Counted from the first letter of the stretch, positions 12,312 through 37,341 are shown. The stretch is 64,000 bases of DNA from Chloroflexota bacterium (GCA_016210205.1 JACQUO010000034.1:3484-67483); one strand, 5' to 3'. Numbers and translations: made by a program. The notes: a model not told the origin generated them from the letters alone.

Positions 12312-12315
12312 ACTG

Positions 12316-13078: not shown

Positions 13079-13080
13079 GG

Positions 13081-13395: not shown

Positions 13396-13396
13396 C

Positions 13397-14124: not shown

Positions 14125-14128
14125 GCCC

Positions 14129-14766: not shown

Positions 14767-15544
14767 CGGCGACCTCTGCTACCTGGCTTACGGGGGTCTC
14801 GACAGCGGCGGGAGGCGCAGCCGCGGGGGCCGTCGTCTGCGGGGCCACTGGTCGTGGCGCGCCCCGCCTGGCCTGGGCCGGGGACGCCTCTGCGGCCGCG
14901 GCCGCGGCCTCGGGCCCTCTAAGCCGGACATCCCCCCTATATATCCACACCTTCACCCCGACCTGCCCCAAAGTAGTTAGGGCCTCGGCGATGCCGAAAT
15001 CGATGTCCGCCCGGATGGTGTGGAGCGGGACCTGGCCCACATGCTCTTTCTCCCGCCGGGCCAGTTCGGAGCCACCCAGACGGCCCGAGGCCAGGATTTT
15101 TATCCCTTTGGCCCCCCGCTGCATGGTGCGGTTGGCCGCCTGCTTGATGGCGCGGCGGTAGGCCACCCGGCGTTCGATTTGGTCCGCCACGCTGCGGGCG
15201 ACGAGGGCGGCATCAAGCTCCGGCTCCCTGATTTCCTGAATGTTGAGACGCACCTTGGTCCCGACCTGTTTCTCCAGGGCGGACCTGGTCTCCTCCACCC
15301 GCTGCCCCCCCCGGCCGATGACTATCCCTGGCCGGGCCGTGAAGATGTCCACCACCACATCATGGCCCCCCCGGTCGATTTCCACCCGGGCGATGCTGGC
15401 GTCGCGATAGCGCTTCATGATGGCGCGTCGTATCTTCAGGTCCTCCAGGAGGCGGGTTCGGTAGTCCTTACGGGCGAACCACTTGGACTTCCAGCCCTTG
15501 TGGATGCCCAAGCGGAACCCTAGCGGATGTGTTTTCTGTCCCAA
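14753..15544 (-). CDS. rpsC: 30S ribosomal protein S3 (uS3) with Ala/Pro-rich tail
   Basis: 263 aa. [13 protein letters not shown] start. Has a ~45-aa low-complexity C-terminal tail. Confidence 0.95.
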
Positions 15545-15580
15545 CGGCTTCTCCTCTGTCTTAGAAAGCTATGATTTCCT

Positions 15581-15907
15581 TCAGCCCACCACTACTGTGA
15601 GATGAGAAAAGCGGCGTTTCCGCGGGCTGGGACGCCCCCGGGAGCGGGGGCGGAAACGCTTCAGCATGAGCCCTTTATCGGCGATAACCCGCACGACCCG
15701 GAGCTCCCCTCCCCCGGCCTGGAACTTCCCCTCGGCGTTGGCCGCCGCCGACTTCACCGCTTTGGCCAACAGGCGAGCATTGGGGGAAGGCAGCTGGTTT
15801 AGCAGCCCCAGGGCCTCCTCCACCTTGCGGCCTTTGACCGCCTCGGCCAGGAGCCGCAGCTTGCGGGGGGAGACGGGGATATTCTTAGCTACCGCGCGAG
15901 CTTCCAT
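15581..15907 (-). CDS. rplV: 50S ribosomal protein L22 (uL22)
   Basis: 108 aa. Begins MEARAVAKNIPVSPRKLRLLAEAVKGRKV. Sits between rpsS and rpsC. Confidence 0.93.
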   Translation of the reverse strand: MEARAVAKNIPVSPRKLRLLAEAVKGRKVEEALGLLNQLPSPNARLLAKAVKSAAANAEGKFQAGGGELRVVRVIADKGLMLKRFRPRSRGRPSPRKRRFSHLTVVVG

Positions 15908-15919
15908 CAGTCCCTATCC

Positions 15920-16216
15920 TCACGCCTGTCTTCGCTGCTGGGTCGTCGGCCGGTCTGACTTCTTGGAGTGGCCCCGGAAGAGCCTGGTGGCGGCGAACTC
16001 CCCCAGCCGGTGGCCCACCATGTTCTCGGTGACAAAGATGGGCACGTGGCGCCGCCCGTCGTGGATGCCGATAGTTTGTCCAATCATCTGGGGCACCACC
16101 ACCGAGGCGCGGGCCCAGGTCTTGATGACCGCCTTCTGCCCGCTGCGACCAGCGGCCTCCACCTTCTTCAGGAGCTTCTCATCCACATAGGGGCCTTTTC
16201 TGACGGAACGAGACAC
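15920..16216 (-). CDS. rpsS: 30S ribosomal protein S19 (uS19)
   Basis: 98 aa. [16 protein letters not shown] motif. Confidence 0.95.
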
Positions 16217-16228
16217 GGCGCCTCCCCC

Positions 16229-17053
16229 TTAGTCCCTTCTCTTGACAATAAACCGGTCGGAGCGGCGGCTGCGGCGGGTGCGATAGCCCAGGGCCGGCTT
16301 GCCCCAAGGGGTCTTGGGGCCCGGCATCCCAATGCCAGAGCGGCCCTCGCCGCCGCCATGAGGGTGGGAGGCGGGGTCCATGGCCACGCCCCGCACCTCG
16401 GGCCGGCGGCCCATGTGCCGGCTGCGCCCCGCCTTGCCCAGGCTGATATGCCCGTGGTCCACATTGCCCACCTGGCCCACGGTGGCGCAGCATTCGGCAT
16501 CGATGCGCCGCATCTCGCCAGAGGGGAGGCGCACCAGGACATACTTCCCTTCCTTGGCCATGAGCTGGGCGGAGGCGCCGGCGCTCCGCACCAGCTGTCC
16601 GCCCTTGCCCCGAGTCAGCTCCACATTGTGAATCATGGTGCCCGCGGGCATGAGGTTCATGCGCAGGTGGTTGCCCGGCCTCACTTCGGCGTCGGGGCCG
16701 GACCGGACCGTATGCCCCACCAAAAGCCCCTGGGGAGCCAGGATGTAGCGCCTGTCCCCGTCCTCATACCGAATGAGGGCGATGCGCCCAGAGCGATTGG
16801 GGTCATACTCGATGCTGGCGACGACGCCCGCCACCCCTTCCTTGTCCCGACGGAAATCAATGAGGCGCAAGCTCCGCTTGGCCCCGCCGCCGCGGTGGCG
16901 CACCGTGACGCGTCCCTGGTTGTTCCGTCCCCCCCTTTTCTTCAGTGGGGTGGTCAGGGACTTCTGCGGCCGCTTGGCGGTAATCTCGGCGAAATCGTGG
17001 AGGGCTGTGCCGCGCAAGGACGGGGTCAGCGGCCTGAAGGTCTTAACCCCCAT
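16229..17053 (-). CDS. rplB: 50S ribosomal protein L2 (uL2)
   Basis: 274 aa. [17 protein letters not shown] and HPHGGGEGR motifs. Confidence 0.95.
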
Positions 17054-17088
17054 GGCCTACCCCCTTCCTCAGACATCCCAGGAAAGAG

Positions 17089-17373
17089 CTACACGCCTTC
17101 ATAGAACTCCAGCTTCTGCCCTGCCTGCAGGGTGACCACGGCCTTCTTCCAGGACGAGGTGAAGGCGGGTCGGCGTCCGATGGCCCGCCTCTTCCCCGGC
17201 ACCGTCATCACATTCACCGCAAGCACCTTCACCTTGAAGGCCTTCTCCACTGCGGCCTTTATCTGAGGTTTGGTGGCATCAGTTGAAACTTCGAAAAGAT
17301 ACTTATTCAGGGCCTGCAGGGCGGTCCCCTTCTCGGAGATGATGGGCCGCCGCAGGACTTCGTAGAGTTCCAC
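17089..17373 (-). CDS. rplW: 50S ribosomal protein L23 (uL23)
   Basis: 94 aa. Sits between rplD and rplB. YEVLRRPIISEKGT start region. Confidence 0.93.
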   Translation of the reverse strand: MELYEVLRRPIISEKGTALQALNKYLFEVSTDATKPQIKAAVEKAFKVKVLAVNVMTVPGKRRAIGRRPAFTSSWKKAVVTLQAGQKLEFYEGV

Positions 17374-26375: not shown

Positions 26376-26405
26376 CCTGTGGGAATCTCTATCCGCGTCA
26401 GCGTG

Positions 26406-27224
26406 TCAGGCCCAGGTCGGCTCGTCCTCCCAACCCAGCCGCAGCGCCAGGCACTTGGCGGCGCCGCCGGCCTTGAGGAACTCGGAGAGGTCCACCTCGT
26501 GCACCGCATACCCCCGGGCCTCCAGGCCCTGACGCAGCTGGGCGCAGCCGGCGTTCACCACCACCTGCCGCCCCACCACCACCGAGTTGCAGCCAAAGCG
26601 GTGGGCATCCTCGGCGCTCACCTCGATGGGCCGGGCGGTGTGCTGCTCGATGAGCCGCCGCGAGGCCGCCACGAAGGCGGGAGGATAGTAGAGCGCCGCC
26701 CCATCTGGCAGGGGGCAGAAGCAGGTGTCCAGGTGATAGAAGTAGGGGTCGGCCAGCTCCAGGGAGATGACCTCCTGCTGCAACAGCTCCCCGATGATGC
26801 GGTGGGAGTGGACATCGGTGCGGTAGTGGTAGCCCCCGAAGAGGCGCAGGCCGCAGGGAAGGAGGTCCCCCTCGCCCTCGAAGTAGTAGCCCCGGGGGAG
26901 GGTGAGCACCTGGTAGCCTCGCTGGGCGAACCAGGCGGCGAACAGGGGGGCCTCCGGGGCTCGCTGGTTGTAGCGGAAGTTGGCCCGGATGAAGCGCCGC
27001 CCGGCCACATAGCCCCCGTTGGCGGTGAAGACCAGGTCCGGGAGCCCGGGCACGGGTTCGATGAGCTTCACCGTGGCCCCCACCTCCTGGGTGAGGACGC
27101 GGTGCAGCTCCTCCCACTGATGCAGCGCCGCCTGGGAGCGCACCTGGCGGCGGCGGGACATCCAGGGGTTTATCTCATACTCAATGCGGTAGTAGTCGGG
27201 ACGGCACATGAGGAAGGAGGCCAT
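26406..27224 (-). CDS. amidinotransferase/DDAH-fold (guanidino-group-modifying enzyme superfamily) protein
   Basis: About 272 aa. Has the N-terminal FLMCRPDYYRIEYEINPWM and a C-terminal GGAAKCL (putative catalytic Cys). Start uncertain (ATG 27224 or TTG 27248). Confidence 0.65.
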   Translation of the reverse strand: MASFLMCRPDYYRIEYEINPWMSRRRQVRSQAALHQWEELHRVLTQEVGATVKLIEPVPGLPDLVFTANGGYVAGRRFIRANFRYNQRAPEAPLFAAWFAQRGYQVLTLPRGYYFEGEGDLLPCGLRLFGGYHYRTDVHSHRIIGELLQQEVISLELADPYFYHLDTCFCPLPDGAALYYPPAFVAASRRLIEQHTARPIEVSAEDAHRFGCNSVVVGRQVVVNAGCAQLRQGLEARGYAVHEVDLSEFLKAGGAAKCLALRLGWEDEPTWA

Positions 27225-27323
27225 GCCGCCAGGATACGCCCCTGGCAATTGAGGGTCAAGCCAGCCAAAGGAAAGCCCCTCCCGGCGAGGAGGGGGCCGC
27301 GGCTGCTGCCTCGGAAAAGGGGC

Positions 27324-28721
27324 TCAGGCGCCGCCCTTGAGGAAGGCGTCCATGGAGGCGGCGGCGCGCTTGCCCGCCCCCATGGCGGAGATGACGGTGG
27401 CGGCGCCGGTGACGATGTCGCCCCCGGCCCAGACCCGGTCCTTGGTGGTCTTGCCCGTCTCCTCGTCGGCCACCAGCGTCCCATGCGGGGTGGTCTGGAG
27501 CCCGGGCGTGGTGGCGGCGATGATGGGGTTGGGGGTGGTGCCAAGGGCGACCACCACGGTGTCCACTGGCAGCAGGAACTCGCTTCCTGGCATGGGGATG
27601 GGGCGGCGCCGGCCCGAGGCGTCGGGCTCCCCCAGCTTCATGCGGATGCACTCCATGCCCGTGACCAGCCCCCGTCCGCCCCCCACGAAGCCGACAGGGT
27701 TGGTGAGCACATGGAAGATGATGCCCTCCTCCTTGGCGTGCTCCACCTCCTCGTGGCGGGCGGGGAGCTCCACCTCGGAGCGCCGATAGACGATATAGAC
27801 CTGCTCCGCCCCCAGGCGCAGGGCCACCCGGGCGGCGTCCATGGCCACATTGCCCCCACCCACCACCGCCACCCGTTTGCCCATCTTGAGGGGGGTGTCG
27901 TAGCGGGGGAAGTCATAGGCCTTCATCAGGTTGGCCCGGGTCAGGAACTCGTTGGCGGAGTAGATGCCGTTCAGGTTCTCCCCGGGGACATTGAGGAACA
28001 TGGGAAGACCCGCCCCCGTCCCCAGGAAGACGGCGTGATAGCCGTCGGCCAATAGCTCGTCGATGGTGACGGAGCGGCCCACCACGGTGTCCAGGACAAT
28101 CTCCACCCCCAGGGCCGCGATGTTGTCAATCTCCGCCTGGACTATGCGCTTGGGCAGGCGGAACTCGGGGATGCCATAGACCAGCACCCCGCCGGCCACA
28201 TGGAGAGCCTCGTAGATGGTGACCTGGTGGCCCCGCCAGGCCAGGTCAGCGCCGCAGGTGAGCCCCGCCGGCCCGGAGCCGATGACGGCCACCCGCTTGC
28301 CCGTGGGCTTGGGCAGCTCCACATGAGCCTTATAGGCGGAATTAATCTCCCAGTCGGCCACAAAGCGCTCCAGGCGTCCGATGGCCACGGGAGCCCCCCG
28401 TTTGCCCACCACGCACTTGGCCTCGCACTGGCTCTCCTGGGGGCAGACCCGGCCGCAGATGGCGGGCAGGTTGTTCTTGCTCTTGAGGACCCGCACCGCC
28501 TCCTCCATGTTGCCCTCCCGCAGGGGCTTGATGAAATCGCGGATGTCGATGCCCACGGGGCAGCCCTGGGTGCAGAGGGGCTTGGGGCACTGGATGCAGC
28601 GGAGCGCCTCCTCCAGAGACAGCTCGGGGTTGTAGCCCAGGGTCACTTCACTGAAGTTGCGGCCGCGGGCCTTGGGGTCCTGGATGGGCATGTCCACGCG
28701 GTTGAGGTTGAGCTTAGCCAT
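27324..28721 (-). CDS. GltD-like NADPH-dependent oxidoreductase (NfnB / glutamate synthase small-chain family)
   Basis: 465 aa. N-terminal Cys clusters (CIQCPKPLC, CPVGIDI, CGRVCPQESQCEAKC). Two dinucleotide-binding motifs (VAVIGSGPAGL, VAVVGGGNVAMD). Confidence 0.8.
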   Translation of the reverse strand: MAKLNLNRVDMPIQDPKARGRNFSEVTLGYNPELSLEEALRCIQCPKPLCTQGCPVGIDIRDFIKPLREGNMEEAVRVLKSKNNLPAICGRVCPQESQCEAKCVVGKRGAPVAIGRLERFVADWEINSAYKAHVELPKPTGKRVAVIGSGPAGLTCGADLAWRGHQVTIYEALHVAGGVLVYGIPEFRLPKRIVQAEIDNIAALGVEIVLDTVVGRSVTIDELLADGYHAVFLGTGAGLPMFLNVPGENLNGIYSANEFLTRANLMKAYDFPRYDTPLKMGKRVAVVGGGNVAMDAARVALRLGAEQVYIVYRRSEVELPARHEEVEHAKEEGIIFHVLTNPVGFVGGGRGLVTGMECIRMKLGEPDASGRRRPIPMPGSEFLLPVDTVVVALGTTPNPIIAATTPGLQTTPHGTLVADEETGKTTKDRVWAGGDIVTGAATVISAMGAGKRAAASMDAFLKGGA

Positions 28722-28727
28722 AGGTTA

Positions 28728-29564
28728 TCACCACTGGGCGCAGTGCTCGCACTGCCAGAATGTGGAAAGCTGGTCTTCGTTGCCGGTGTAGGTGCAGCGC
28801 CGGGCCAGGAGCAAGTCCCACTCCACCAGATGGCCGTCGAAGGCAGGCCCGTCCACACAGGCGAACTTGGTGACTCCGCCCACGGCCACCCGGCAGGCCC
28901 CGCACATCCCGGTGCCGTCCACCATGATGGGGTTGAGGCTCACCACCGTCTTGATGCTGTAGGGCTTGGTGGTGAGGGAGACATAGCGCATGACGCAGGC
29001 CGGGCCGATGACCACCACCCGGTGGATGGGCTGGCCGCCCTGGAGCACCTGCCGCAGGGGCTGGATGACGAAGCTGGAGTGGTCGGCCCCGTTGCCCGCG
29101 CTGACAATCAGCTCGCTGCAGGCCGCCCGCAGGCGGTCCAGGCCGAAGAGGTATTCCCCCTGGCGCGCCCAGGCGATGCCTATGACGCGGTTGCCCGCCT
29201 CTTTGAGGGCCCGGGCGATGGGCACCATGGTGGCCATGCCGTAGCCCACGGCCACGCAGACCACCGTGCCAAAGCGGCCAATCTCCGCGGGTAGGCCCAG
29301 GGGCCCCACGAAGTTGGCGATGCTGTCGCCCTTCTGAAGCTCGGCCAGCTTCCTGGTGGTGCGGCCCACCGCGGCGAAGACGATGTCCACGGTGCCCCGC
29401 TCTCGGTCGAAGTCGGCGATGGTGAGGGGAATGCGCTCCCCCATCTCGTCCACCCGGAGCATGATGAACTGGCCCGGCTGAGCCTTCCTGGCCACCTGGG
29501 GCGCTTCAATGCGAAAAAGAAATATGTTAGGGGCTAGCTCTTCTCTAGCCGCTATGGGATACAC
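28728..29564 (-). CDS. PyrK-like FAD/[2Fe-2S] subunit (NfnA / SudB family)
   Basis: 278 aa. Ferredoxin-reductase-type fold with a C-terminal MVDGTGMCGACRV...FACVDGP cluster motif. Lies 6 nt upstream of the GltD-like gene. Confidence 0.8.
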   Translation of the reverse strand: MYPIAAREELAPNIFLFRIEAPQVARKAQPGQFIMLRVDEMGERIPLTIADFDRERGTVDIVFAAVGRTTRKLAELQKGDSIANFVGPLGLPAEIGRFGTVVCVAVGYGMATMVPIARALKEAGNRVIGIAWARQGEYLFGLDRLRAACSELIVSAGNGADHSSFVIQPLRQVLQGGQPIHRVVVIGPACVMRYVSLTTKPYSIKTVVSLNPIMVDGTGMCGACRVAVGGVTKFACVDGPAFDGHLVEWDLLLARRCTYTGNEDQLSTFWQCEHCAQW

Positions 29565-29584
29565 GGGGTGAGCCTCCGGGATTT

Positions 29585-32353
29585 CTAGGCTGGCACCTTC
29601 ACCGCCGCTTTGGCTACTTTCACCGCACAGGTCTTGAACTCGGGGATTTTGGCTTGGGGGTCTAAAGCGGGGTTCGTGAGGACATTGGCATTGGCCTCAG
29701 CAAAATGGAAGGACATGGTGATGACACCCGGAGGTGTAGCGCCGGTTACCGCGGCCCGGGCCCTGGCCTGGCCCCTACGGGAGGTCACCTCCACCCAGTC
29801 CCCGTCCTGGATTGCCAGCTTGGTGGCATCGGCGGGGTTTATCTCCACCATCCCTTCTCCCACAATGCGGTTCAGGTCCTTCACCTTCCGGGTCATGGTG
29901 CCGGTGTGGTAGTGATAGTAGCTTCGGGCCGTGGTGAGCACCAGGGGATAGTCCGCATCGGGCAGCTCCGTCGGCGGCCGGTAGGTCAGGGCCGTGAACT
30001 TGCCTTTGCCGCGGGTGAAGCGCTCCGTGTGGAGGATAGGGGTGCCGGGGTGGTCCGCCGTGGGGCAGGGCCACTGGAGGCCGCCCTCCTTCTCCAGACG
30101 AGCGTGGGAGATGCCGCCGTAGCTCGGCGTGAGGCGAGCCATCTCCTCCATCACCTGGGCCGGGCCGGCGAAGTCGAAGCCCTGGCCCCCCAGGCGCTGG
30201 GCGAGCTGGCAGATTATCTCCCAGTCGGTCCGAGCCTGGCCAAGGGCAGGCAGGGCCGGGCGCACCAGCTGCACCCGGCGCTCGGTGTTGGTGAAGGTGC
30301 CGCCCTTCTCCGCAAAGGAGGTAGCGGGGAGAATCACATGGGCAAACTGGTTGGTCTCGTTCATGAAGATGTCCTGGCACACGAAGAACTCCAGCTTCTT
30401 CAGGGCCTCCTCCACATGGCCTATATCGGGGTCGGAGACCATGGGGTTCTCCCCCATCATGTAGATGGCCTTGATTTTGCCCTCGTAGGCGGCGTTGAAC
30501 ATCTCCACCAGGGTCAGGCCGGGCCTGGCGGGAAGCGAGACGCCCCAGGCCTTCTCATGTTTCTCCCGCAGCGCCGCATCAGCCACCGACTGATAGCCAG
30601 CATAGACATTGGGCAAGGCCCCCATGTCGCAAGAGCCCTGGACATTGTTCTGTCCCCGCAGGGGGTTGACCCCAGCCCCGGGCTTGCCCAGGTTGCCCGT
30701 GAGCATGGCTAGATTGGCGACGGCCATGACATTGTCGGTGCCGTGGCTGCTCTGGGTGATGCCCATGGCATAGAGGATGGCCGCAGGCTTGGTGGTGGCG
30801 TAGAGACGGGCCGCGGCGGCGATGTCCGCTTTGGCCACGCCGGTGAGCTTCTCCACGGTGTCCAAGTCAAAGGCCGCCAGGGAGGCCTTGAAGGCCTCGT
30901 AGTCCTCGCAGCGCTCGGCGATGAAGGCCTTGTCCTCCAGGCCCTGGTCCACGATGGCCCTGGCCAGGCCCGTGAGCAGGGCCACATCGCTCCCCGGCCG
31001 CTGGCGCAGCCAGATGGAGGCGTCCCGGCAGAGGGGTATCTCTCGGGGGTCAGCCACGATAAGCTTGGCCCCGCCTTTCACCGCTTGACGCACCTTCATC
31101 CCGATGACGGGGTGAGTGGCGGTGGTGTTGGAGCCGATGACCAGGAAGCAGGCCGATTGGAGCATCCCCTGGTTGGTGTTGGTCATGGCGGCGCTGCCGA
31201 AGACCGCTCCCAGGCCCGTCACCGAGGAAGAATGGCACAGGCGGGCGCAGTGGTCCACATTGTTAGTGCCCATGACGGCCCGAGCGAACTTCATCATGAG
31301 GTAGTTCTCTTCGTTGGTGCACTTGGCCGAAGAGATGGCGGCGAACTGGTCGATGCCCTTATAGGGGGCGAGCTTCTGCGCGATGAGGCTCAGGGCCTCC
31401 TCCCAGGTGGCCGCCACGAACTGCCCATCCTTCTTGATGAGCGGGGTGGTGAGCCGCTCCGGGCTCTGGATGAAGTCCAACCCGAACTTGCCCTTGACGC
31501 AGAGACGCCCCATGTTGGCCGGGGCATTGGGCTCGCCTTTGACGCGCTGGATTTTATCGTCCTTGATGAAGAGGCGGAGCTGGCAGCCCACGCCGCAGTA
31601 GGGGCAGGTGGTGACCACCTGCCGGTCGGCGAGGCCGGCCCAGCGGTTGGCCCGCTCCACGATGGAGCCCGTGGGGCAGATGTCTATGCAGGAGCCACAG
31701 AAGATGCAGCCCGCCTCCTCCAGGGAGCGTCCGAAGGCGGTGCCCACCAGAGCTTTGCTACCCCGGTAGGTGAAGGCCAGGGCCGAGGCCCCCACCACCT
31801 CATCGCAGATGCGGACACAACGGCCGCAGAGGATGCACAGGTTGTAGTCCCGGTCGTAGAAGGGGTCCTTGTTCTCGATGGGCAGGCCCCGGTAAGAATA
31901 GGGAAGGGTCATCTCGGGGAGCTGGATGTAGCGAGCCACTTCTTTGAGCTCGCACCGCTTGTTCTTGGGGCAGGTGACGCAGCGCTCGCTCACGGAGACA
32001 TGGCGGAGGCAGATGTCACCGGGGCCACAGAGTTCGATGCGGTGGCAGGTGATGCAGGGATGGGGATGCTCGGTGAGCAGGAACTCCAGGATGTTGCGCC
32101 GGAGCTGCTGGAGCTGGGGCGTGTTGGTCTTCACCACCATGCCCGCCGTGACGGGGGTGGTGCAGGCGGTGGGGAAGCCCCGCAGGCGCTCGATTTCGGT
32201 GATGCACATGCGGCAGCCGCCGTAGGGCTTGAGGTCGGGATGGGCGCAGAGGGTGGGGATGTACAGCCCCGCCTGCTGGGCCGCCTCCAGGACCGTGGCT
32301 CCCGCGGGGGCCTTGACCTCCCGTCCGTCGATGCTTAAGGTTACATCTGCCAC
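29585..32353 (-). CDS. formate dehydrogenase alpha subunit (molybdopterin, Cys-type) with NuoG-like N-terminal Fe-S domain
   Basis: 922 aa. N-terminal 2Fe-2S/4Fe-4S Cys clusters, then the MopB cluster CPYCGVGC. The active-site context HCARLCHSSSV has Cys where Sec-type enzymes have Sec. GQNNVQGSCDMG is also present. Confidence 0.85.
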   Translation of the reverse strand: MADVTLSIDGREVKAPAGATVLEAAQQAGLYIPTLCAHPDLKPYGGCRMCITEIERLRGFPTACTTPVTAGMVVKTNTPQLQQLRRNILEFLLTEHPHPCITCHRIELCGPGDICLRHVSVSERCVTCPKNKRCELKEVARYIQLPEMTLPYSYRGLPIENKDPFYDRDYNLCILCGRCVRICDEVVGASALAFTYRGSKALVGTAFGRSLEEAGCIFCGSCIDICPTGSIVERANRWAGLADRQVVTTCPYCGVGCQLRLFIKDDKIQRVKGEPNAPANMGRLCVKGKFGLDFIQSPERLTTPLIKKDGQFVAATWEEALSLIAQKLAPYKGIDQFAAISSAKCTNEENYLMMKFARAVMGTNNVDHCARLCHSSSVTGLGAVFGSAAMTNTNQGMLQSACFLVIGSNTTATHPVIGMKVRQAVKGGAKLIVADPREIPLCRDASIWLRQRPGSDVALLTGLARAIVDQGLEDKAFIAERCEDYEAFKASLAAFDLDTVEKLTGVAKADIAAAARLYATTKPAAILYAMGITQSSHGTDNVMAVANLAMLTGNLGKPGAGVNPLRGQNNVQGSCDMGALPNVYAGYQSVADAALREKHEKAWGVSLPARPGLTLVEMFNAAYEGKIKAIYMMGENPMVSDPDIGHVEEALKKLEFFVCQDIFMNETNQFAHVILPATSFAEKGGTFTNTERRVQLVRPALPALGQARTDWEIICQLAQRLGGQGFDFAGPAQVMEEMARLTPSYGGISHARLEKEGGLQWPCPTADHPGTPILHTERFTRGKGKFTALTYRPPTELPDADYPLVLTTARSYYHYHTGTMTRKVKDLNRIVGEGMVEINPADATKLAIQDGDWVEVTSRRGQARARAAVTGATPPGVITMSFHFAEANANVLTNPALDPQAKIPEFKTCAVKVAKAAVKVPA

Positions 32354-32386
32354 TCTTTACTCACCTCTATCCAAAGTCGGTCAGGG

Positions 32387-35300
32387 TTATTCTTCCAAGT
32401 CACAGCGGAGACAGCGCCGGCACTCGGCCAGGGCCTGCTCCGCGGTGAATCCCAGGTCCACCAGGCTGAAGCTGCCCTGGCGCTGGGCCGGGGGCATGGC
32501 GGGCATTCGGGCCCGGGCGGCGCCGCCCTCGGCAACCTCCGCGGGGACTATCTCCTCGGGCAGGGCGAAGGTCTCGGCGATGTCGCCTTTCCCGCCCAGA
32601 TAGCGGTCCACGGCCATGGCGGCCTCCCGCCCCTGGGCGATGGACTCGATGACGGAGGAGGGCCCCAGCACCACATCGCCGCCGGCGAAGACGCCGGGCC
32701 GGCTGGTGGCCATAGTGTCCTCGTTCACCTCCACCTGGTTGCCCCGTCCCACCTTGATGCCCATCTCCGCCAGGTCCTCGGGCATCTGGCCGATGGCGGC
32801 AATCACGGAGTCCACCTCCATGACATACTCGCTGCCCGGCATGGGCTCGGGGCGGGGGCGGCCGCTGTCGTCGGGGGCGCCCAGGCGCATGCGGACACAC
32901 TCCAGCTTGAGGTGGCCGCTATCCCTGATGACCTGGGTGGGATTGGCCAGGACCTCCAGCTTGGCTCCTTCGTGGAGGGCCTCCTCAATCTCCTCGTGGG
33001 TAGCGGGCATCTCCTTGCGGGTGCGGCGGTAAACTATGGTCACCTCTTTGGCCCCCAAGCGGAGGGCGGTCCTGGCGGCGTCGATGGCGGAGTTGCCGCC
33101 GCCCACCACCACCACCCGGATGCCCAGGTTGAACTTCTGGCCTGAACTCGCCTCCCGGAGGAAGGTGACGCAGTCCAGCACCCCGGGGCCATCCTCGCCC
33201 TTGACCCGCATCTTGGTGCCCAGATGGGCCCCCGTGGCCAGATAGACCGCAGCGTAGCCCTCGGCGAACAGCTTGTCCGCAGACTGCACCCTGGTGTTGG
33301 TCTTGAGCTCCACCCCCAGGGCGGTGATTTCCCCGATTTCTTTATCCAGCACCTCTGCCGGCAGGCGGTAGCGGGGGATGCCCACCCGCATCATGCCGCC
33401 GGCCTGGGGCAGGGCCTCGAGCACCGTGACCTTATGGCCTAGGCGGGCCAGATAGTAGGCTGCGGTGAGGCCGGCGGGGCCGGCGCCCACCACCGCCACC
33501 CGCTTCCCCGTGGGCGGTTTCATGGCGGCTCGGTCCTTCCACTTATCGGTGGCGTGGTCCGCGGCGAAGCGCTTGAGGCTGCAGATGGCGATAGGCTCGT
33601 CCACATCCTTACGGCGGCACTTGGCCTCGCAGGGGTGGAAGCAGACATAGCCCAAGATGGCCGGGAAGGGCACCCGCTCGCGGATGACCGCCAGGGCGGT
33701 GTCGTAGTCGCCCTTCTGAATCTCCCGGATGTAGCGGGGCACATTGATTTGGGCGGGGCAAGTATGGCGGCAGGGGGCGATGATAATGTCCCGGCAGACC
33801 ACGGCGGGGCACTTCTTCTTCTCAATGTGAGCCTTATACTCATCCAGGAAATAACGGGTGGTGGTGAGGATGGGGTTGGGACAGGTCTGCCCCAGGCCAC
33901 AGAGGGAGCCCGAGCGCACGGTGTTGGCCAGGCTGATGAGCTTCTCCACATCCCCGCGCTGGCCCTCGCCCTGGGTGATGCGGGTCATGAGGTTGAGCAT
34001 CTGCCTGGTGCCCACCCGGCAGGGGATGCACTTGCCGCATGACTCAGCCTGGGTGAAGGTGAGGAAGAAACGGGCCAGGTCCACGATGCAGGTGTCCTCG
34101 TCGGCTACCACCATGCCGCCGGAGCCCAGGATGGAGCCCACCTGGGCCAGGGTGCCGAAGTCCACGGGGGTGTCCAGCATGCTGGCGGGTAGGCAGCCGC
34201 CGGAGGGGCCACCGGTCTGCACCGCCTTGAAGCGCTTCTGGTTGGGTATGCCCCCCCCAATCTCGTAGATGATTTTGCGGAGGGGGGTGCCCATGGGCAC
34301 CTCCACCAGGCCACAGTTGGCCACCTTGCCCGTGAGGCTGAAAATCACCGTGCCCTTGGAGTCGGCAGTGCCGATGCCTGCGAACCAGTCGGCTCCCATG
34401 GACAGGATGCGGGCGGCGCTGGTCAGGGTCTTGACGTTGTTGATATTGCTGGGGGAGGCCCAAACGCCCGAGTTGGCCGGGAAGGGTGGCCGCGGCCGGG
34501 GCATGCCCCGCAGCCCCTCGATGGAGGCGATGAGGGCCGTCTCCTCGCCGCAGACGAAGGCCCCCGCACCCTCCTTCAACTGCACATGGAAGGAGAAGCC
34601 CGAGCCCAGGATGTTATCCCCCAAAAAGCCCCGTTCCTCCGCCTGGGCCAGGGCCTTGCGCACACGAACGATGGCCAGGGGGTACTCTGCGCGGACATAC
34701 ATGTAGCCGTGGTTGGCCCCGATGGCATAGGCGCCGACGGTCATGCCCTCAATGCAGGAGTGCGGGTCCGCCTCCAGGATGGAGCGATCCATGAAGGCCC
34801 CGGGGTCCCCCTCGTCGGCGTTGACAATCATATACTTGTTCTGGCCCGGGGCAGCCCGGCAGAAGCTCCACTTCTGCCAGGTGGGGAACCCCGCCCCGCC
34901 GCGGCCCCGAAGGCCGGATTTCTTCACTTCCTCAATGACCTGTTCGGGGGACATCTGGAGAGCCTTCTTCAGGCCCGAATAGACCCCCACCTCCAGAGCA
35001 TCATCGAGGCTCTCGGGGTTGATGTGGCCGCAGTTCTTGAGGACCACCCGGTTCTGCTCTTTATAGAAAATCACATCCTTGTAGTGCGGTATGCGCTCCC
35101 CCGTCTGGGGGTCGGGGTAGAGGAGCCGCTCCACCACCTTGCCCTCTTTGAGATGGGAGCGGGCGATGTCCCGGGCATCCTCGGGCTTGACATGAGTGTA
35201 GAAGACGCCCTCGGGCTCCACGATGGCGATGGGTCCCCGCTGGCAGAAGCCATGGCAGCCGGTGAACTTCACCTGGGCCGGCAGGCCCAGGGCGCGAATC

Positions 35301-35395
35301 TCCGCCTCCAGGCTGACTTGAATCTGCGGCGACTTGGCGGAGGTGCAGCCGGTGCCCTGGCAGATGAGGACAGTATGCCGGGAGTTCTCAGGCAT
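32387..35395 (-). CDS. NuoF-like (NADH/FMN/4Fe-4S) protein fused to a GltD-like NAD(P)H flavoprotein module
   Basis: About 1002 aa. Thioredoxin-like 2Fe-2S N-terminus (CQGTGC...CHGFC). NuoF motifs (GLRGRGGAGFPTWQKW, CGKCIPCRVG). GltD-like part (CRHTCPAQINV, CFHPCEAKC, VAVVGAGPAGL, VVVVGGGNSAID). Start set at ATG 35395, preceded by AGGGGGA. Confidence 0.82.
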   Translation of the reverse strand: MPENSRHTVLICQGTGCTSAKSPQIQVSLEAEIRALGLPAQVKFTGCHGFCQRGPIAIVEPEGVFYTHVKPEDARDIARSHLKEGKVVERLLYPDPQTGERIPHYKDVIFYKEQNRVVLKNCGHINPESLDDALEVGVYSGLKKALQMSPEQVIEEVKKSGLRGRGGAGFPTWQKWSFCRAAPGQNKYMIVNADEGDPGAFMDRSILEADPHSCIEGMTVGAYAIGANHGYMYVRAEYPLAIVRVRKALAQAEERGFLGDNILGSGFSFHVQLKEGAGAFVCGEETALIASIEGLRGMPRPRPPFPANSGVWASPSNINNVKTLTSAARILSMGADWFAGIGTADSKGTVIFSLTGKVANCGLVEVPMGTPLRKIIYEIGGGIPNQKRFKAVQTGGPSGGCLPASMLDTPVDFGTLAQVGSILGSGGMVVADEDTCIVDLARFFLTFTQAESCGKCIPCRVGTRQMLNLMTRITQGEGQRGDVEKLISLANTVRSGSLCGLGQTCPNPILTTTRYFLDEYKAHIEKKKCPAVVCRDIIIAPCRHTCPAQINVPRYIREIQKGDYDTALAVIRERVPFPAILGYVCFHPCEAKCRRKDVDEPIAICSLKRFAADHATDKWKDRAAMKPPTGKRVAVVGAGPAGLTAAYYLARLGHKVTVLEALPQAGGMMRVGIPRYRLPAEVLDKEIGEITALGVELKTNTRVQSADKLFAEGYAAVYLATGAHLGTKMRVKGEDGPGVLDCVTFLREASSGQKFNLGIRVVVVGGGNSAIDAARTALRLGAKEVTIVYRRTRKEMPATHEEIEEALHEGAKLEVLANPTQVIRDSGHLKLECVRMRLGAPDDSGRPRPEPMPGSEYVMEVDSVIAAIGQMPEDLAEMGIKVGRGNQVEVNEDTMATSRPGVFAGGDVVLGPSSVIESIAQGREAAMAVDRYLGGKGDIAETFALPEEIVPAEVAEGGAARARMPAMPPAQRQGSFSLVDLGFTAEQALAECRRCLRCDLEE

Positions 35396-35882
35396 GGTGG
35401 TCCCCCTTGCTGGCATCGCCGAAGAGCTCTTCCACCTTCTTCATGGTCATCTCCCCGTGGGTCTCCTCGTTGATGACCATGGTGGGGGCCAGGGCGCAGG
35501 CGCCGATACAGGCCACCGTCTCCAGGGTGTAGTTCAGGTCGGGGGTGGTCTGCCCCTCTTTGACGCCCAAGCGCTTCTCCACCTCCAGCAGGATGCGGTG
35601 CCCGCCCTTGACATGGCAGGCAGTGCCCCGGCAGACCCGGACCACATTCTTGCCCGTGGGGTGGAGACGGAACTGAGCATAGAAGGTCATGACCCCGAAA
35701 ATCTGGTTCCGGGAGATGTGGAGGAACTTGGCAATCTCCTCCACGGCCTCCTCGGGCAGATAGCCCAGCTTCTCCTGGGTCTTCTGAAGGATAGGGATAA
35801 GGGCACCACGCTCCCCTTTATAGGGGATTAGAAGCTCCTTCATTTGCTCCTTTATGGAGTCAGTCGCAGACGCCATGGCCAT
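35388..35882 (-). CDS. NuoE-like [2Fe-2S] thioredoxin-fold subunit
   Basis: 164 aa. Cys pattern CRGTAC...CIGAC is typical of NuoE/HoxE/FdsG. 8-nt overlap with the downstream NuoF-like gene. Confidence 0.85.
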   Translation of the reverse strand: MAMASATDSIKEQMKELLIPYKGERGALIPILQKTQEKLGYLPEEAVEEIAKFLHISRNQIFGVMTFYAQFRLHPTGKNVVRVCRGTACHVKGGHRILLEVEKRLGVKEGQTTPDLNYTLETVACIGACALAPTMVINEETHGEMTMKKVEELFGDASKGDHHA

Positions 35883-35917
35883 CTCCTGCTAAAAGAAATT
35901 CACGGCTCATATTGAAA

Positions 35918-35937
35918 GGGGTATCCATATACCCCTT
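35918..35937. promoter_or_regulatory. perfect 8-bp inverted repeat between the promoter and the nuoE-like start (operator or leader hairpin)
   Basis: aggggtat-ccat-atacccct, 36 nt upstream of the start codon. Confidence 0.5.
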
Positions 35938-35977
35938 CTGAGGCTCACGCCAAGTCAAATTTCAACCACCAATCCCA

Positions 35978-36006
35978 GTATACCCACTAGGGAACAGCGT
36001 TGCAAG
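35978..36006 (-). promoter_or_regulatory. candidate sigma70-type promoter of the FDH operon
   Basis: Minus strand reads TTGCAA-17 nt-TATACT. Confidence 0.55.
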
Positions 36007-36027
36007 ACCAGCCCGCTGCCTTCCCCT

Positions 36028-37341
36028 TCAGATACCAGGGGCGGCCCCCTCCTCCGCCAGGCGGGCCACCTCGTCCCCCAGGCGGATGCTGTAGGATATA
36101 CCCCGGTCCTGGGGGTAAATCTGGGTGGTGTTGGCCAGATACAGCCCCGGGATAGGGGTGCGGTGAGGGGGAATCCTCTCCCCGTAGCCCGTGGTGATGA
36201 CCGGCTGGCCCGCCGCCTCGCGGAAGAGATGGGCCTCCTCCACCCAGTCGGGCCGGAAACGGGGGTTCAGACGGGACAGATGGGGTAGGTAGAGCATCAG
36301 CAGCTCCTCCACCCTGGCCCCAAAGAGAGGGTTCTTCGGGTCAAGGTAGTTGGAGAGGTAGAGGATGTGCCGTCCGCCGTATTCTGATTTGTCCACCAGG
36401 TTGGTGTGCTCAATGGCGGCCACGAAGGGCACCGTGGGGTCGGCGATATTGAGCCAGTAGATAGGGGTGAGGGACTGCTTCAGGGACAGCACCAGGCAGA
36501 GAGCGGCCTGATAGCGCGCCTGCTCCAGCATCTGGCGATATCCCTGCGGCAGGCTGGGGGCCAGCTGCAGCATGGCCGGCGAGGGCACCGTGGCGATGAC
36601 CGCCTCGGCGGGGTGCTCCCGCCCGCCGGCCACCACCCCCGCCGTCCGCCCCTCCTTCACGGCGATGGCCTGCGCCGGGCTCTCCAGGTGGATGGCCCCA
36701 CCCTGCTTCCTGATGCCCTCGGCCAGGGCATCGGCCACCAACTGAAAGCTGCCTCTAAGGTAGCCCAGCCGCTCCTGCCCCAGGCCCCGGCTTCGGGAGC
36801 CGAAGCGCAGGTGCAGCTTGCCCCAGAGCCAGACCATGGCCACCTCCTCGGCCCGAGGGCCGAACTTGCCCCGGAGCAGAGGGCCCCAGACCACCTCGTA
36901 AATCTCCCGCCCCAGGTGCTGGACAATCCAGTCCCGGGCGGTGATGGTCTCGTACTGGCGCCATTGGGTGTCCCGCTGGAGCCGCAGGCTGGCCAGGCCC
37001 AGGCGGAGCCGGTTGACCAGGCTCAAGGGACGAAAGCGCAGGAGGTCCCACGGGGTGGTGAAGTCATAGACCCGCCCCCCGTGAAAGAAACCCACGCGCG
37101 AGGGCAGCCATTGGAGTCGGTCTCCCAGGCCCAACTCCTGGATGATATTGATTATGTCAATATCGCTGGTGAAGATATGGTGGTAGAAGGCATCCAGCTT
37201 GGCCCCGCCCAGGACGAAGGCGGCGGCCTGGCCCCCCAAAAATGGGTGGGCTTCAAAGAGGCTGACCTGGTGGCCCCGCTGGCCCAAGCGGTAGGCCGCG
37301 GTCAGCCCGGCCAGGCCGCCGCCCACCACGGCCACCCTCAT
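36028..37341 (-). CDS. FAD-dependent oxidoreductase (amine oxidase / phytoene desaturase-like fold)
   Basis: 437 aa. N-terminal dinucleotide motif VAVVGGGLAGLTAAYRL...EA..FLGG. Confidence 0.75.
   Translation of the reverse strand: MRVAVVGGGLAGLTAAYRLGQRGHQVSLFEAHPFLGGQAAAFVLGGAKLDAFYHHIFTSDIDIINIIQELGLGDRLQWLPSRVGFFHGGRVYDFTTPWDLLRFRPLSLVNRLRLGLASLRLQRDTQWRQYETITARDWIVQHLGREIYEVVWGPLLRGKFGPRAEEVAMVWLWGKLHLRFGSRSRGLGQERLGYLRGSFQLVADALAEGIRKQGGAIHLESPAQAIAVKEGRTAGVVAGGREHPAEAVIATVPSPAMLQLAPSLPQGYRQMLEQARYQAALCLVLSLKQSLTPIYWLNIADPTVPFVAAIEHTNLVDKSEYGGRHILYLSNYLDPKNPLFGARVEELLMLYLPHLSRLNPRFRPDWVEEAHLFREAAGQPVITTGYGERIPPHRTPIPGLYLANTTQIYPQDRGISYSIRLGDEVARLAEEGAAPGI

What the first reader, a model, noticed from the sequence alone, without database searches (positions are those of the whole stretch)
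27324..35882. Soluble formate dehydrogenase operon wired to two GltD-type modules and an NfnAB-like pair
Five co-directional genes have gaps of 33 nt or less, or overlap by 8 nt.

1. A NuoE-like 2Fe-2S protein.
2. A ~1002-aa NuoF-GltD fusion.
3. A 922-aa Cys-type FDH alpha subunit with a NuoG-like Fe-S domain.
4. A PyrK-like NfnA.
5. A GltD-like NfnB.

NuoE/NuoF/FdhA sets are known NAD-linked or electron-bifurcating formate dehydrogenases. NfnAB is a known bifurcating NADH/ferredoxin:NADP transhydrogenase.

Both in a single operon, plus a second GltD module fused to NuoF, suggests a complex that couples formate oxidation or CO2 reduction to NADH, NADPH and ferredoxin pools at once.

Two possibly formate/oxalate-type MFS transporters lie directly downstream, though that subfamily call is tentative.
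Basis: partly seen in the sequence, partly recalled or inferred. Interest (0 to 1): 0.6.

Follow-up and report, generated by a model that had tools for sequence, protein, structure and literature searches.

The report
Formate dehydrogenase operon carrying NfnAB
An uncultured Dehalococcoidia bacterium with carbon-fixation (Wood-Ljungdahl) genes puts a formate dehydrogenase, whose flavin subunit has an NADPH-binding module in place of its ferredoxin-docking end, in one operon with the NfnAB transhydrogenase; this pairing recurs in many relatives and no enzyme of this design has been tested.

Summary
The five genes are real, co-directional and tightly packed. A promoter-like site precedes them and a terminator-like hairpin follows.

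They most likely encode two enzymes, not one complex.

- **Enzyme 1** is a Cys-type Mo/W formate dehydrogenase on a HydBC/Stn-type (Bfu) core. The ferredoxin-like end of the NuoF-type subunit is replaced by a Stn-type NADPH/FAD module.
- **Enzyme 2** is a canonical NfnAB, the genome's only copy.

The two GltD-type modules belong to different lineages. The fused one has a Lys cluster ligand and a permuted order, as in StnC. NfnB has the Glu ligand of true NfnB.

In 201 genomes of the same class, nfnA is single-copy in 51. An active fdhA lies directly upstream of it in about 21, across at least 14 families. Those operons use fused subunits, unfused ferredoxin-type subunits, or a separate GltD subunit. 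The FDH-Nfn link is therefore general in this class, not special to the fusion.

The MFS genes are not directly downstream and show no real oxalate/formate signature.

This scan found the NuoF-GltD formate dehydrogenase before on other DNA. One paper notes the fusion in hydrogenases. I found no description of the conserved FDH-nfnAB operon. No transcript data could be obtained.

The parts
35977..36005 (-). Promoter-like site (TTGCAA-17-TATACT) about 95 nt upstream of the nuoE start
   Evidence: Consensus scan, 9 of 12 matches. Sequence read. Weak evidence only.
35388..35882 (-). NuoE/HydC-type [2Fe-2S] subunit (BfuC-like), 164 aa, with an AGGAG ribosome-binding site before the ATG
   Evidence: PF01257, E=3.8e-50. 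Best solved relatives are C subunits of bifurcating Bfu enzymes: 7t2r_C 185 bits and 8a6t_C 174 bits. Non-bifurcating FdsG scores 94-106 bits.
35096..35395 (-). Fusion protein residues 1-100: thioredoxin-like [2Fe-2S] domain (the B5 site). Ligands C12, C17, C47, C51.
   Evidence: Translation. All four Cys are invariant in 25 homologues. The region aligns to the N-terminal domain of HydB 7t2r_B.
33782..35095 (-). Fusion protein residues 101-538: NuoF/HydB core. FMN/NAD(H) site; B1 [4Fe-4S] with C453, C456, C459, C499; hinge site B2 with C436, H523, C529, C534.
   Evidence: Complex1_51K, SLBB and NADH_4Fe-4S domains. 771 bits to bifurcating NiFe-HydB 7t2r_B, against 380 bits to FdsB and Nqo1. 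The AFM, AGAFVCGEE and GGPSG motifs named in PMC12018979 are present and invariant.
32390..33781 (-). Fusion protein residues 539-1002: Stn-type, circularly permuted GltD module. Two [4Fe-4S] clusters, FAD, and NADP(H) motifs (GGGNSAID...YRR). It replaces the ferredoxin-like B3/B4 domain.
   Evidence: Fer4_20 + Pyr_redox_2. 400-420 bits to the GltD domains of 9bov_A and 8oh5_C, against 299 bits to T. maritima NfnB. The C-terminal RCLRCD tail aligns to the N-terminus of NfnB. K608 corresponds to StnC K170 (PMC10482914).
29585..32353 (-). FdhA, 922 aa: NuoG-like Fe-S N-terminus plus Mo/W-bis-PGD catalytic domain, Cys type
   Evidence: TIGR01591, 852 bits. 789 bits to R. capsulatus FdsA 6tg9_A over residues 2-915. 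The CARLCH and RGQNNVQG motifs are conserved.
28728..29564 (-). NfnA (small subunit; PyrK-like FAD/NAD(H) + [2Fe-2S]), 278 aa
   Evidence: PRK06222, 361 bits. 287 bits to P. furiosus NfnI small subunit 5jca_S over its full length.
27324..28721 (-). NfnB (large subunit; bifurcating FAD/NADP(H) + 2x[4Fe-4S]), 465 aa
   Evidence: TIGR01316, 581 bits. 596 bits to T. maritima NfnB 4ylf_B over residues 8-463. It carries the Glu-type ligand motif RLERF.
27276..27295 (-). Terminator-like GC-rich hairpin (CCCCTCC-TCGC-CGGGAGGGG followed by CTTTCCTTTG), 29 nt after the nfnB stop
   Evidence: Consensus scan. Sequence read. The next gene has its own promoter-like site at 27259..27231.

Best explanation
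The five genes form one operon for two separate soluble enzymes. They sit at the formate/CO2 entry of the Wood-Ljungdahl methyl branch.

**Enzyme 1 (NuoE-like, NuoF::GltD, FdhA).** This is a Cys-type Mo/W formate dehydrogenase (CO2 reductase) built on a Bfu-type core related to HydBC and StnAB.
- In ordinary members of this core, electrons leave the FMN / B1 / C1 site towards ferredoxin through a small 2x[4Fe-4S] domain at the end of the B subunit.
- Here that domain is replaced by a complete Stn-type NADPH-FAD module.
- NADP(H) is therefore predicted to take ferredoxin's place: 2 formate + NAD+ + NADP+ <-> 2 CO2 + NADH + NADPH.

**Enzyme 2.** This is a canonical NfnAB: 2 NADPH + NAD+ + Fd(ox) <-> 2 NADP+ + NADH + Fd(red). 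It keeps the NADPH used or made by enzyme 1 in balance with NADH and ferredoxin.

**Shown:** domain make-up, cofactor motifs, lineage of each module, operon layout, conserved synteny.

**Inferred:** the reaction, its stoichiometry, and that the two enzymes are not physically joined.
For: **Operon**
- Gaps of 33 nt or less, or an 8-nt overlap.
- Promoter-like site before nuoE and terminator-like hairpin after nfnB.

**B and C subunits are Bfu-type**
- B subunit: 771 bits to 7t2r_B against 380 bits to FdsB.
- C subunit: 185 bits to 7t2r_C against 94-106 bits to FdsG.
- The AFM and GGPSG motifs, the B2 ligands and the B5 ligands are present and invariant.

**The swap**
- Homology to HydB stops at residue 538, directly after the B2 hinge. 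The Stn-type GltD module begins there, with its Lys ligand and permuted order.
- Close relatives with the same FdhA carry two CX2CX2CX3CP motifs at exactly this position. They nest inside the fused clade.

**FdhA looks active**
- Cys-His and Arg are present. MetF-linked and other paralogous partners have lost them.

**NfnAB is canonical and single-copy**.

**Conserved linkage**
- An active fdhA lies directly upstream of nfnAB in about 21 of 51 nfnA-bearing genomes of the class, in at least 14 families.

**Genome context**
- acsBCDE, cooS, fhs and metF are present. This is the only NuoEF-FdhA set found.

**Precedent**
- In Moorella thermoacetica, Nfn supplies NADPH to an NADPH-dependent formate dehydrogenase and to FolD, and nfn lies next to folD (PMC6405883).
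Against: - No biochemical data exist for any NuoF::GltD enzyme.
- Formate has the lowest potential of the three couples. 'Bifurcation' to NAD+ and NADP+ therefore has no obvious energetic purpose, and the enzyme might simply use either nucleotide.
- By Schut's definition a Bfu enzyme needs B3/B4, which are absent here.
- FdhD and MoaC were not found in the 87.5%-complete genome, so cofactor maturation is not fully accounted for.
- Promoter and terminator matches are consensus hits in a phylum whose signals are poorly known.
- The recurrent co-location of nfnAB with this enzyme is also what a physical partnership would produce.
Confidence: 0.55

Rival explanations
1. Plain dual-nucleotide formate dehydrogenase. 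The trimer does not couple anything energetically. Electrons from formate reach either the FMN (NAD+) or the fused FAD (NADP+) through an Fe-S wire. NfnAB is merely a co-regulated housekeeping enzyme.
For: - FdhA is closest to the alpha subunit of the non-bifurcating NAD-dependent enzyme, R. capsulatus FdsA (789 bits).
- Both NAD+ and NADP+ reduction by formate are downhill, from standard potentials (established knowledge).
- The StnC-type FAD has been shown not to bifurcate (PMC10482914).
- B3/B4 are absent. HydB homologues lacking them, such as S. wolfei, do not bifurcate (PMC11406978, PMC9304861).
Against: - The B and C subunits keep every Bfu-specific motif, and these are invariant: B5 cluster, B2 hinge, AFM and GGPSG.
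- An uncoupled enzyme with both an NADH and an NADPH site would act as a free transhydrogenase. It would collapse the NADPH/NADH disequilibrium that cells maintain (inference).
Confidence: 0.2
2. One supercomplex. NfnAB docks on the formate dehydrogenase. Two different bifurcating sites, the Bfu flavobicluster and the NfnB FAD, then work in one particle linking formate, NADH, NADPH and ferredoxin.
For: - Tight spacing: 20 nt between fdhA and nfnA.
- nfnAB follows fdhA in about 21 genomes across at least 14 families, and with three different B-subunit designs.
- In one Aminicenantaceae locus (L074), nfnAB follows a HydB-type set whose FdhA-like subunit is catalytically dead. That set would need some partner.
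Against: - NfnA and NfnB have no extra domain or extension compared with the crystallised stand-alone enzymes.
- nfnA is single-copy and lies away from any FDH in the other nfnA-bearing genomes, including several complete ones.
- Known NfnAB enzymes work as free heterodimers (PMC6405883).
Confidence: 0.12
3. Stn-like transhydrogenase in which CO2/formate replaces ferredoxin as the low-potential partner: 2 NADPH + NAD+ + CO2 <-> 2 NADP+ + NADH + formate. NADPH is the bifurcated donor.
For: - The parts list equals StnABC rearranged: NuoE, NuoF, a Stn-type GltD and an FdhF-like subunit (PMC7483475).
- In vivo NADPH lies between NADH and formate in potential (established knowledge).
- Relatives place the module at the end of Wood-Ljungdahl clusters, like stnABC in Sporomusa.
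Against: In solved Stn/NfnABC enzymes the NADPH module feeds the mid-potential path through the A subunit to B1. Here it sits on the other branch, behind the B2 hinge where ferredoxin would dock. The formate site occupies the mid-potential entry (PMC12018979).
Confidence: 0.08

Closest known systems
StnABC / NfnABC (Nfn-Bfu) electron-bifurcating transhydrogenases: S. ovata 8oh5, C. saccharolyticus 9bov, T. sibiricus 9n5u
   Same: - NuoE-type C subunit.
- HydB-type B subunit with FMN, B1, the B2 hinge and the B5 domain.
- A permuted GltD NADPH/FAD module with a Lys-liganded proximal cluster.
- An FdhF-like A subunit.
Sources.
   Different: - The GltD module is fused behind the B2 hinge of the B subunit in place of B3/B4. 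In Stn it is inserted into the A subunit.
- The FdhF-like subunit keeps Cys-His and Arg and should be active. StnC has no formate activity (PMC7483475).
Fdh-Bfu formate dehydrogenases (type 1 of Schut et al. 2022, PMC9304861) and HylABC-FdhF2 of Gottschalkia acidurici
   Same: A formate dehydrogenase on a BfuBC-type core. Sister loci in the same class have exactly this canonical design, with two ferredoxin motifs on the B subunit.
   Different: The window's B subunit lacks the B3/B4 ferredoxin-like domain that the family definition requires and that docks ferredoxin. It has an NADPH module there instead.
'Sub-type I' BfuB of group A3 [FeFe]-hydrogenases (Zheng & Huang 2024, PMC11406978)
   Same: The same domain swap is described from sequence: B3/B4 replaced by a DPD_II domain plus a FAD/NAD(P)-binding domain.
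   Different: There the partner is an [FeFe]-hydrogenase. No FDH partner, no nfnAB linkage and no biochemistry are reported.
FdsABG NAD+-dependent formate dehydrogenase (R. capsulatus 6tg9, C. necator 6vw7)
   Same: Three-gene layout. FdhA is most similar to FdsA, 789 bits, with the same catalytic Cys-His and Arg.
   Different: FdsB and FdsG score only about half as well as Bfu subunits. FdsB has no B2-B5 sites and no NADPH module.
NfnAB (T. maritima 4ylf, P. furiosus NfnI 5jca; M. thermoacetica physiology)
   Same: The window's nfnA and nfnB are full-length close relatives. Nfn supplying NADPH to Wood-Ljungdahl enzymes, and lying next to one of their genes, is known in Moorella (PMC6405883).
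   Different: Here nfnAB is inside the formate dehydrogenase operon. I found no description of that in the papers searched.
Stn-like cluster next to a Mo-formate dehydrogenase in Dehalobacteriia (PMC10327494)
   Same: A published observation that NuoE, NuoF and GltD genes co-occur with a cytoplasmic FDH gene. Its significance was called 'unclear', and the proteins are highly expressed.
   Different: A Firmicutes lineage. The GltD is on a third subunit, not fused to NuoF, and no nfnAB is mentioned.

Membership tests
Bfu family (BfuABC; Schut et al. 2022) | B subunit with FMN/NAD site, B1 [4Fe-4S] and the Bfu-specific motifs (AFM, Phe loop, GGPSG) | tested here: met
   Motifs read and invariant. 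Motif definitions from PMC12018979. 771 bits to 7t2r_B.
Bfu family (BfuABC; Schut et al. 2022) | B2 hinge site (His + 3 Cys) and N-terminal B5 [2Fe-2S] domain | tested here: met
   C436, H523, C529, C534 and C12, C17, C47, C51 are invariant. The fifth B2 ligand is Thr, as in the Zn-type enzymes (one search compared).
Bfu family (BfuABC; Schut et al. 2022) | C-terminal ferredoxin-like domain with B3 and B4 (two CX2CX2CX3CP motifs) | tested here: not met
   Homology to HydB ends at residue 538, and a GltD module follows. Sister proteins do carry the two motifs.
Bfu family (BfuABC; Schut et al. 2022) | Electron bifurcation with NAD(H), ferredoxin and a third substrate | not testable with these tools
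   Needs enzyme assays.
Stn / NfnABC transhydrogenase | Stn-type GltD module: permuted order and Lys ligand (StnC K170) on the FAD-proximal cluster | tested here: met
   K608 in SLKRF aligns to K170. The C-terminal RCLRCD tail aligns to the N-terminus of NfnB (PMC10482914).
Stn / NfnABC transhydrogenase | GltD module inserted in the NuoG/FdhF-like A subunit, whose FdhF part is inactive | tested here: not met
   GltD is fused to the B subunit. FdhA keeps CARLCH and RGQNNVQG.
Metal-dependent formate dehydrogenase (FdhF/FdsA type) | Mo/W-bis-PGD domains with catalytic Cys or Sec followed by His, and the conserved Arg | tested here: met
   TIGR01591, 852 bits against a cut-off of 666. C373, H374 and R566 align to FdsA.
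Metal-dependent formate dehydrogenase (FdhF/FdsA type) | Cofactor maturation genes (FdhD sulfurase, Moco synthesis) in the genome | tested here: inconclusive
   MoeA was found. FdhD and MoaC were not found in an 87.5%-complete genome.
NfnAB (NfnSL) | Small PyrK-like subunit plus large GltD-like subunit with the Glu-liganded cluster, both full length | tested here: met
   287 bits to 5jca_S over residues 1-271. 596 bits to 4ylf_B over residues 8-463, with RLERF.
NfnAB (NfnSL) | [quoted passage not shown] | not testable with these tools
   Needs an enzyme assay.
FdsABG NAD+-dependent FDH | FdsB- and FdsG-type flavoprotein subunits without the extra Bfu sites | tested here: not met
   FdsB scores 380 bits against 771 for HydB types. 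FdsG scores 94-106 against 185. B5 and B2 are present.
SfrAB (Geobacter soluble NADPH oxidoreductase) | Two subunits: [2Fe-2S]-N-terminus::GltD (SfrB) and an FdhA-like SfrA, with no NuoEF | tested here: not met
   The PRK12814 model is hit only in parts, by two different proteins. NuoE and a NuoF core are present.
Oxalate/formate antiporter (OFA) MFS family, for the downstream transporters | Score above the TIGR00890 cut-off | tested here: not met
   38 and 50 bits against a cut-off of 375. Lactate and PgtP models score slightly better.

The most novel reading that the evidence does not exclude
The recurrent fdhA-nfnAB gene order reflects a physical formate dehydrogenase-NfnAB supercomplex. 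In it the Bfu-type FMN/Fe-S site and the NfnB FAD, two mechanistically different bifurcation sites, are wired together. One particle would then poise formate/CO2 against NADH, NADPH and ferredoxin at once. The fused GltD module could be the docking or hand-over point for NADPH-level electrons.
Probability: 0.12. Interest if true: 0.8.

Novelty: new variant of a known kind. Interest (0 to 1): 0.55.

Why it matters
How CO2 is reduced to formate, and with which electron carrier, sets the energy budget of the Wood-Ljungdahl pathway. For the abundant sediment and subsurface Dehalococcoidia this step is unknown.

This operon, compared with its relatives, offers a natural experiment. The same formate dehydrogenase occurs in three forms, each followed by NfnAB:
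- with a ferredoxin-docking end on the flavin subunit;
- with a separate NADPH subunit;
- with the NADPH module fused in place of the ferredoxin end.

For the ferredoxin-type version the products (NADH + reduced ferredoxin, 1:1) are exactly the substrates of NfnAB. The pair would therefore add up to a net NADP-dependent formate dehydrogenase. The fused version may do this within one enzyme.

Testing it would also answer a mechanistic question. Does the Bfu bifurcating core still couple reactions when its low-potential branch ends in NADP+ instead of ferredoxin?

Tried and rejected
1. **Is nfnAB adjacency specific to the GltD-fused type?** A first count gave 8 of 15 fused loci against 0 of 6 ferredoxin-type loci (Fisher p=0.046). 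The nfnA-centred survey overturned this. Ferredoxin-type HydB-like subunits also precede fdhA-nfnAB in G134, G017, G148 and G039, and a short type does in G021. I withdraw the claim.
2. **Riboswitch in the leader.** I found no Rfam match in 35800-36100 at E<=1. The leader hairpin is unremarkable, z=-1.55.
4. **MFS genes as formate/oxalate carriers.** Rejected.
5. **Cofactor and context genes.** FdhD, MoaC, RnfD and the [NiFe]-hydrogenase large subunit were not found in the genome. The genome is 87.5% complete, so absence is not shown.
6. **Literature.** Six searches found no description of an FDH-nfnAB operon and no biochemistry of a NuoF::GltD subunit. They found only the hydrogenase note in PMC11406978 and the 'unclear' Stn-FDH neighbourhood in PMC10327494.
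7. **Structure prediction.** Not run. The tool folds single chains and returns no coordinates, so it could test neither NfnAB docking nor cluster-to-cluster distances.
8. **One misdirected query.** One NCBIfam query (26398-27117) was in the wrong frame for the downstream gene and gave nothing. The Pfam DDAH hit belongs to frame 26406-27248.

Full report
**1. What is there**

On the minus strand of the window lie five ORFs:
- nuoE-like, 35882..35388, 164 aa;
- a NuoF::GltD fusion, 35395..32387, 1002 aa, or 1009 aa from an upstream ATG;
- fdhA, 32353..29585, 922 aa;
- nfnA, 29564..28728, 278 aa;
- nfnB, 28721..27324, 465 aa.

The nuoE stop and the fusion start overlap as ATGCCTGA, 8 nt. The other junctions are gaps of 33, 20 and 6 nt.

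A promoter-like site (36005..35977) and an AGGAG ribosome-binding site precede nuoE. A GC-rich hairpin with a T-rich tail (27295..27276) follows nfnB by 29 nt. The next gene has its own promoter-like site. These are consensus matches only.

**2. The surroundings**

The gene directly downstream is DDAH/amidinotransferase-like. The two MFS genes come after it. Their best NCBIfam hits are to lactate, PgtP and oxalate/formate families, at 38-79 bits against cut-offs of 320-408. The transporter hint is therefore not supported.

The genome is 1.42 Mb in 34 contigs and 87.5% complete. Relatives' record titles and earlier notes place it in Dehalococcoidia.
- It carries acsB, acsC, acsD and acsE, cooS, fhs, and metF with a DUF5981 gene.
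- This is its only NuoEF set, its only FdhA of this type and its only NfnA.
- MoeA is present.
- FdhD, MoaC, RnfD and a [NiFe]-hydrogenase were not found. In an incomplete genome this does not show absence.

**3. Enzyme 1: a Bfu-type core**

Residues 7-538 of the fusion score far better against B subunits of proven bifurcating enzymes than against non-bifurcating ones:

| Comparator | Bits |
|---|---|
| [NiFe]-HydB 7t2r_B | 771 |
| HydB of A. woodii and T. kivui, NfnB of NfnABC, StnB | 626-676 |
| FdsB, Nqo1 | about 380 |

The NuoE-like protein behaves the same way: 185 bits to 7t2r_C against 94-106 bits to FdsG.

The Bfu-specific features named in PMC12018979 are present and invariant across 25 homologues:
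- the AFM motif;
- the Phe loop AGAFVCGEE;
- GGPSG;
- the hinge site B2 (C436, H523, C529, C534);
- the N-terminal [2Fe-2S] ligands (C12, C17, C47, C51).

The fifth B2 ligand of the [NiFe] enzyme (C476) is Thr here. This matches the enzymes in which B2 holds zinc.

**4. Enzyme 1: the swap**

Similarity to HydB stops at residue 538, directly after the hinge motif AHIEKKKCPAVVC. In canonical enzymes the ferredoxin-like domain with clusters B3 and B4 begins at this point. Ferredoxin binds between that domain and the mobile C-terminal domain of the C subunit (PMC12018979 abstract).

Here a GltD module follows instead: Fer4_20, FAD, and an NADPH site with GGGNSAID and YRR. Three observations place it in the Stn/NfnABC lineage rather than the NfnB lineage.
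- It scores 400-420 bits to the GltD domains of 9bov_A, 9n5u_A and 8oh5_C, against 299 bits to T. maritima NfnB.
- Its last 36 residues (…AECRRCLRCD) align to the N-terminus of NfnB. The module is thus circularly permuted, as in StnC. The distal cluster should be built from C542 and C546 plus C995 and C998.
- The non-Cys ligand of the FAD-proximal cluster is Lys (K608, SLKRF), matching StnC K170. Kremp and co-workers found K170 strictly conserved in StnC, where NfnB has Glu (PMC10482914). The same paper argues that the StnC FAD does not bifurcate.

**5. Enzyme 1: the catalytic subunit**

FdhA matches TIGR01591 at 852 bits. It aligns over residues 2-915 with R. capsulatus FdsA at 789 bits. Its CARLCH (C373, H374) and RGQNNVQG (R566) lie on the catalytic residues.

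Across related loci, partners 44% or more identical to this FdhA nearly all keep CARL[C/Sec]H and the Arg. The FdhA-like partners of MetF-linked and other NuoF::GltD sets have lost them, reading for example NGSRLYNS. This FdhA is therefore predicted to be active, unlike the FdhF-like part of StnC, which showed no formate activity (PMC7483475).

**6. Enzyme 2**

NfnB scores 596 bits to T. maritima NfnB over residues 8-463 and has the Glu-type motif RLERF. NfnA scores 287 bits to the P. furiosus NfnI small subunit over its full length. Neither has an extra domain.

The 'two GltD-type modules' of the operon therefore belong to two different lineages with different known behaviour.

**7. How widespread the fusion is**

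More than 8000 proteins of the same length match the fusion. The best are 62-66% identical and carry Chloroflexota or Dehalococcoidales names. Full-length fusions occur in many phyla.

In a sample of 200 genomes of the same class, 44 places in 36 other genomes hold a near-full-length fusion. Their neighbourhoods fall into three types:
- nuoE, fusion, active fdhA;
- dead-fdhA-like, nuoE, fusion, DUF5981, metF;
- nuoE, fusion, a shorter dead NuoG/FdhA-like gene.

In two relatives the module closes a Wood-Ljungdahl cluster, the position stnABC has in Sporomusa (PMC7483475).

On a FastTree of the B-subunit core, the window sits in a 21-row Dehalococcoidia clade with support 94. Ferredoxin-type B subunits (L063-L065) nest inside the fused clade with support 99. 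The C-terminal module has therefore been exchanged more than once. FastTree support values and a midpoint root are the limits of this statement.

**8. The nfnAB link**

This is the part specific to this finding.

The same five-gene order occurs in L004, L096, L099, L107 and L118. It also occurs, cut by contig ends, in L101 and L103.

I then searched from the other side. nfnA is present once per genome in 51 of 201 genomes of the class. I fetched its surroundings.
- An active fdhA lies directly upstream of nfnAB in 18 genomes.
- In 3 more (G196, G103, G077) a separate [NuoG-N-terminus::GltD] gene lies between them.
- Together this is about 21 of 51 genomes, in at least 14 family labels.
- Five further genomes have only a GltD-module gene beside nfnAB.
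- The rest show no such neighbour or are cut too short to tell. They include several complete genomes.

The B subunit in these operons is not always fused. In G134, G017, G148 and G039 it is a 612-631-aa HydB-type protein with two CX2CX2CX3CP motifs after the hinge. In G021 it is a short 549-aa form. This overturns my earlier count suggesting that the link was specific to the fusion.

Where nfnAB is in the FDH operon it is still the genome's only copy. In G144 the only copy lies elsewhere.

**9. Reading**

The identities and the conserved linkage are shown. The reactions are inferred.

For the ferredoxin-type sisters, the expected Fdh-Bfu reaction is the one established for the family in PMC9304861:
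- 2 formate + NAD+ + Fd(ox) -> 2 CO2 + NADH + Fd(red).

It yields NADH and reduced ferredoxin in the 1:1 ratio that NfnAB consumes (PMC6405883):
- NADH + Fd(red) + 2 NADP+ -> NAD+ + Fd(ox) + 2 NADPH.

The operon as a whole would then be a net NADP-dependent formate dehydrogenase or CO2 reductase. That is the cofactor solution Moorella thermoacetica reaches with a different enzyme, and Moorella also places nfn next to an NADPH-using Wood-Ljungdahl gene (PMC6405883).

In the window, NADP(H) is built into the formate dehydrogenase at the place where ferredoxin would dock. I predict:
- 2 formate + NAD+ + NADP+ <-> 2 CO2 + NADH + NADPH.

NfnAB would keep the three pools in balance. In the CO2-reducing direction this would draw a quarter of the electrons from ferredoxin rather than half. 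This is my arithmetic, not a measurement.

Whether the core still couples the two half-reactions is open. Formate is the lowest-potential couple, so no uphill step is needed. Against that, an uncoupled enzyme with both nucleotide sites would act as a free transhydrogenase.

**10. Rivals**

The rivals are listed in their own section with the result that would refute each:
- an uncoupled dual-nucleotide dehydrogenase (0.20);
- a physical FDH-NfnAB supercomplex (0.12);
- an Stn-like enzyme in which CO2 replaces ferredoxin (0.08).

**11. Comparison with what is known**

- The domain swap has been noted from sequence for [FeFe]-hydrogenase clusters as 'sub-type I BfuB' (PMC11406978).
- An unexplained Stn-like cluster beside a Mo-FDH gene, with highly expressed proteins, was reported in Dehalobacteriia (PMC10327494).
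- Earlier agents of this scan reached the same reading of NuoF::GltD formate dehydrogenases on other genomes. I re-derived it here from alignments rather than taking it over.
- I found no paper describing nfnAB inside formate dehydrogenase operons, or the three-design series. The library does not hold most subscription journals.

**12. Verdict**

This is an operon-level link between formate and the NADH, NADPH and ferredoxin pools, made by two enzymes. It is a new variant of known kinds (Bfu/Stn-type formate dehydrogenase plus NfnAB). It is widespread in uncultured Dehalococcoidia and untested biochemically.

Noticed in passing
window 54001-64000: GC content drops from about 0.65 to about 0.50 over the last 10 kb.
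   Followed up: no
L108-L116, L119, L122, L126 (same-class genomes): A second conserved use of the NuoE + NuoF::GltD pair. The order is dead FdhA-like gene, nuoE, fusion, DUF5981, metF. This points to an electron-input module for methylene-THF reductase. An earlier finding of this scan reported it too.
   Followed up: partly
L149 (G196), L155 (G103), L165 (G077): Operons with nuoE, a ferredoxin-type nuoF, an active fdhA, a separate [NuoG-like N-terminus::GltD] gene, then nfnAB. This is an unfused intermediate between the canonical and fused designs.
   Followed up: partly
L074 (Aminicenantaceae MAG), 9519-17171: nuoE, a HydB-type nuoF, an FdhA-like gene without catalytic residues (NSAHFS), then nfnA and nfnB. 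This is a Bfu-type set with no evident third-substrate site sitting next to NfnAB.
   Followed up: no
L174 (G084:C38), 484-5550: An active Cys-type fdhA followed by nfnAB, with no nuoE or nuoF in the 6.5 kb upstream.
   Followed up: no
own genome C15:11292-13286 (minus strand): A third GltD-like protein of 664 aa, 38% identical to the fused module. Small genes just downstream (about 8.5-11.3 kb) include one with a CxxCH haem-c motif (CTVCH).
   Followed up: no
window 27224-27259: The downstream DDAH-like gene probably starts at ATG 27224, only a few bases after a promoter-like -10 box. It may be a leaderless mRNA.
   Followed up: no
window 35908-35935 (minus strand): A 9-bp hairpin (AAGGGGUAU-AUGG-AUACCCCUU) in the nuoE leader. 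I found no Rfam match, and the fold is not exceptional, z=-1.55.
   Followed up: yes
L001 (JGI contig, 242 kb), 9511-13033: nuoE + NuoF::GltD end a Wood-Ljungdahl cluster with no FdhA-like partner gene after them. The next gene is a glycosyltransferase on the other strand.
   Followed up: no
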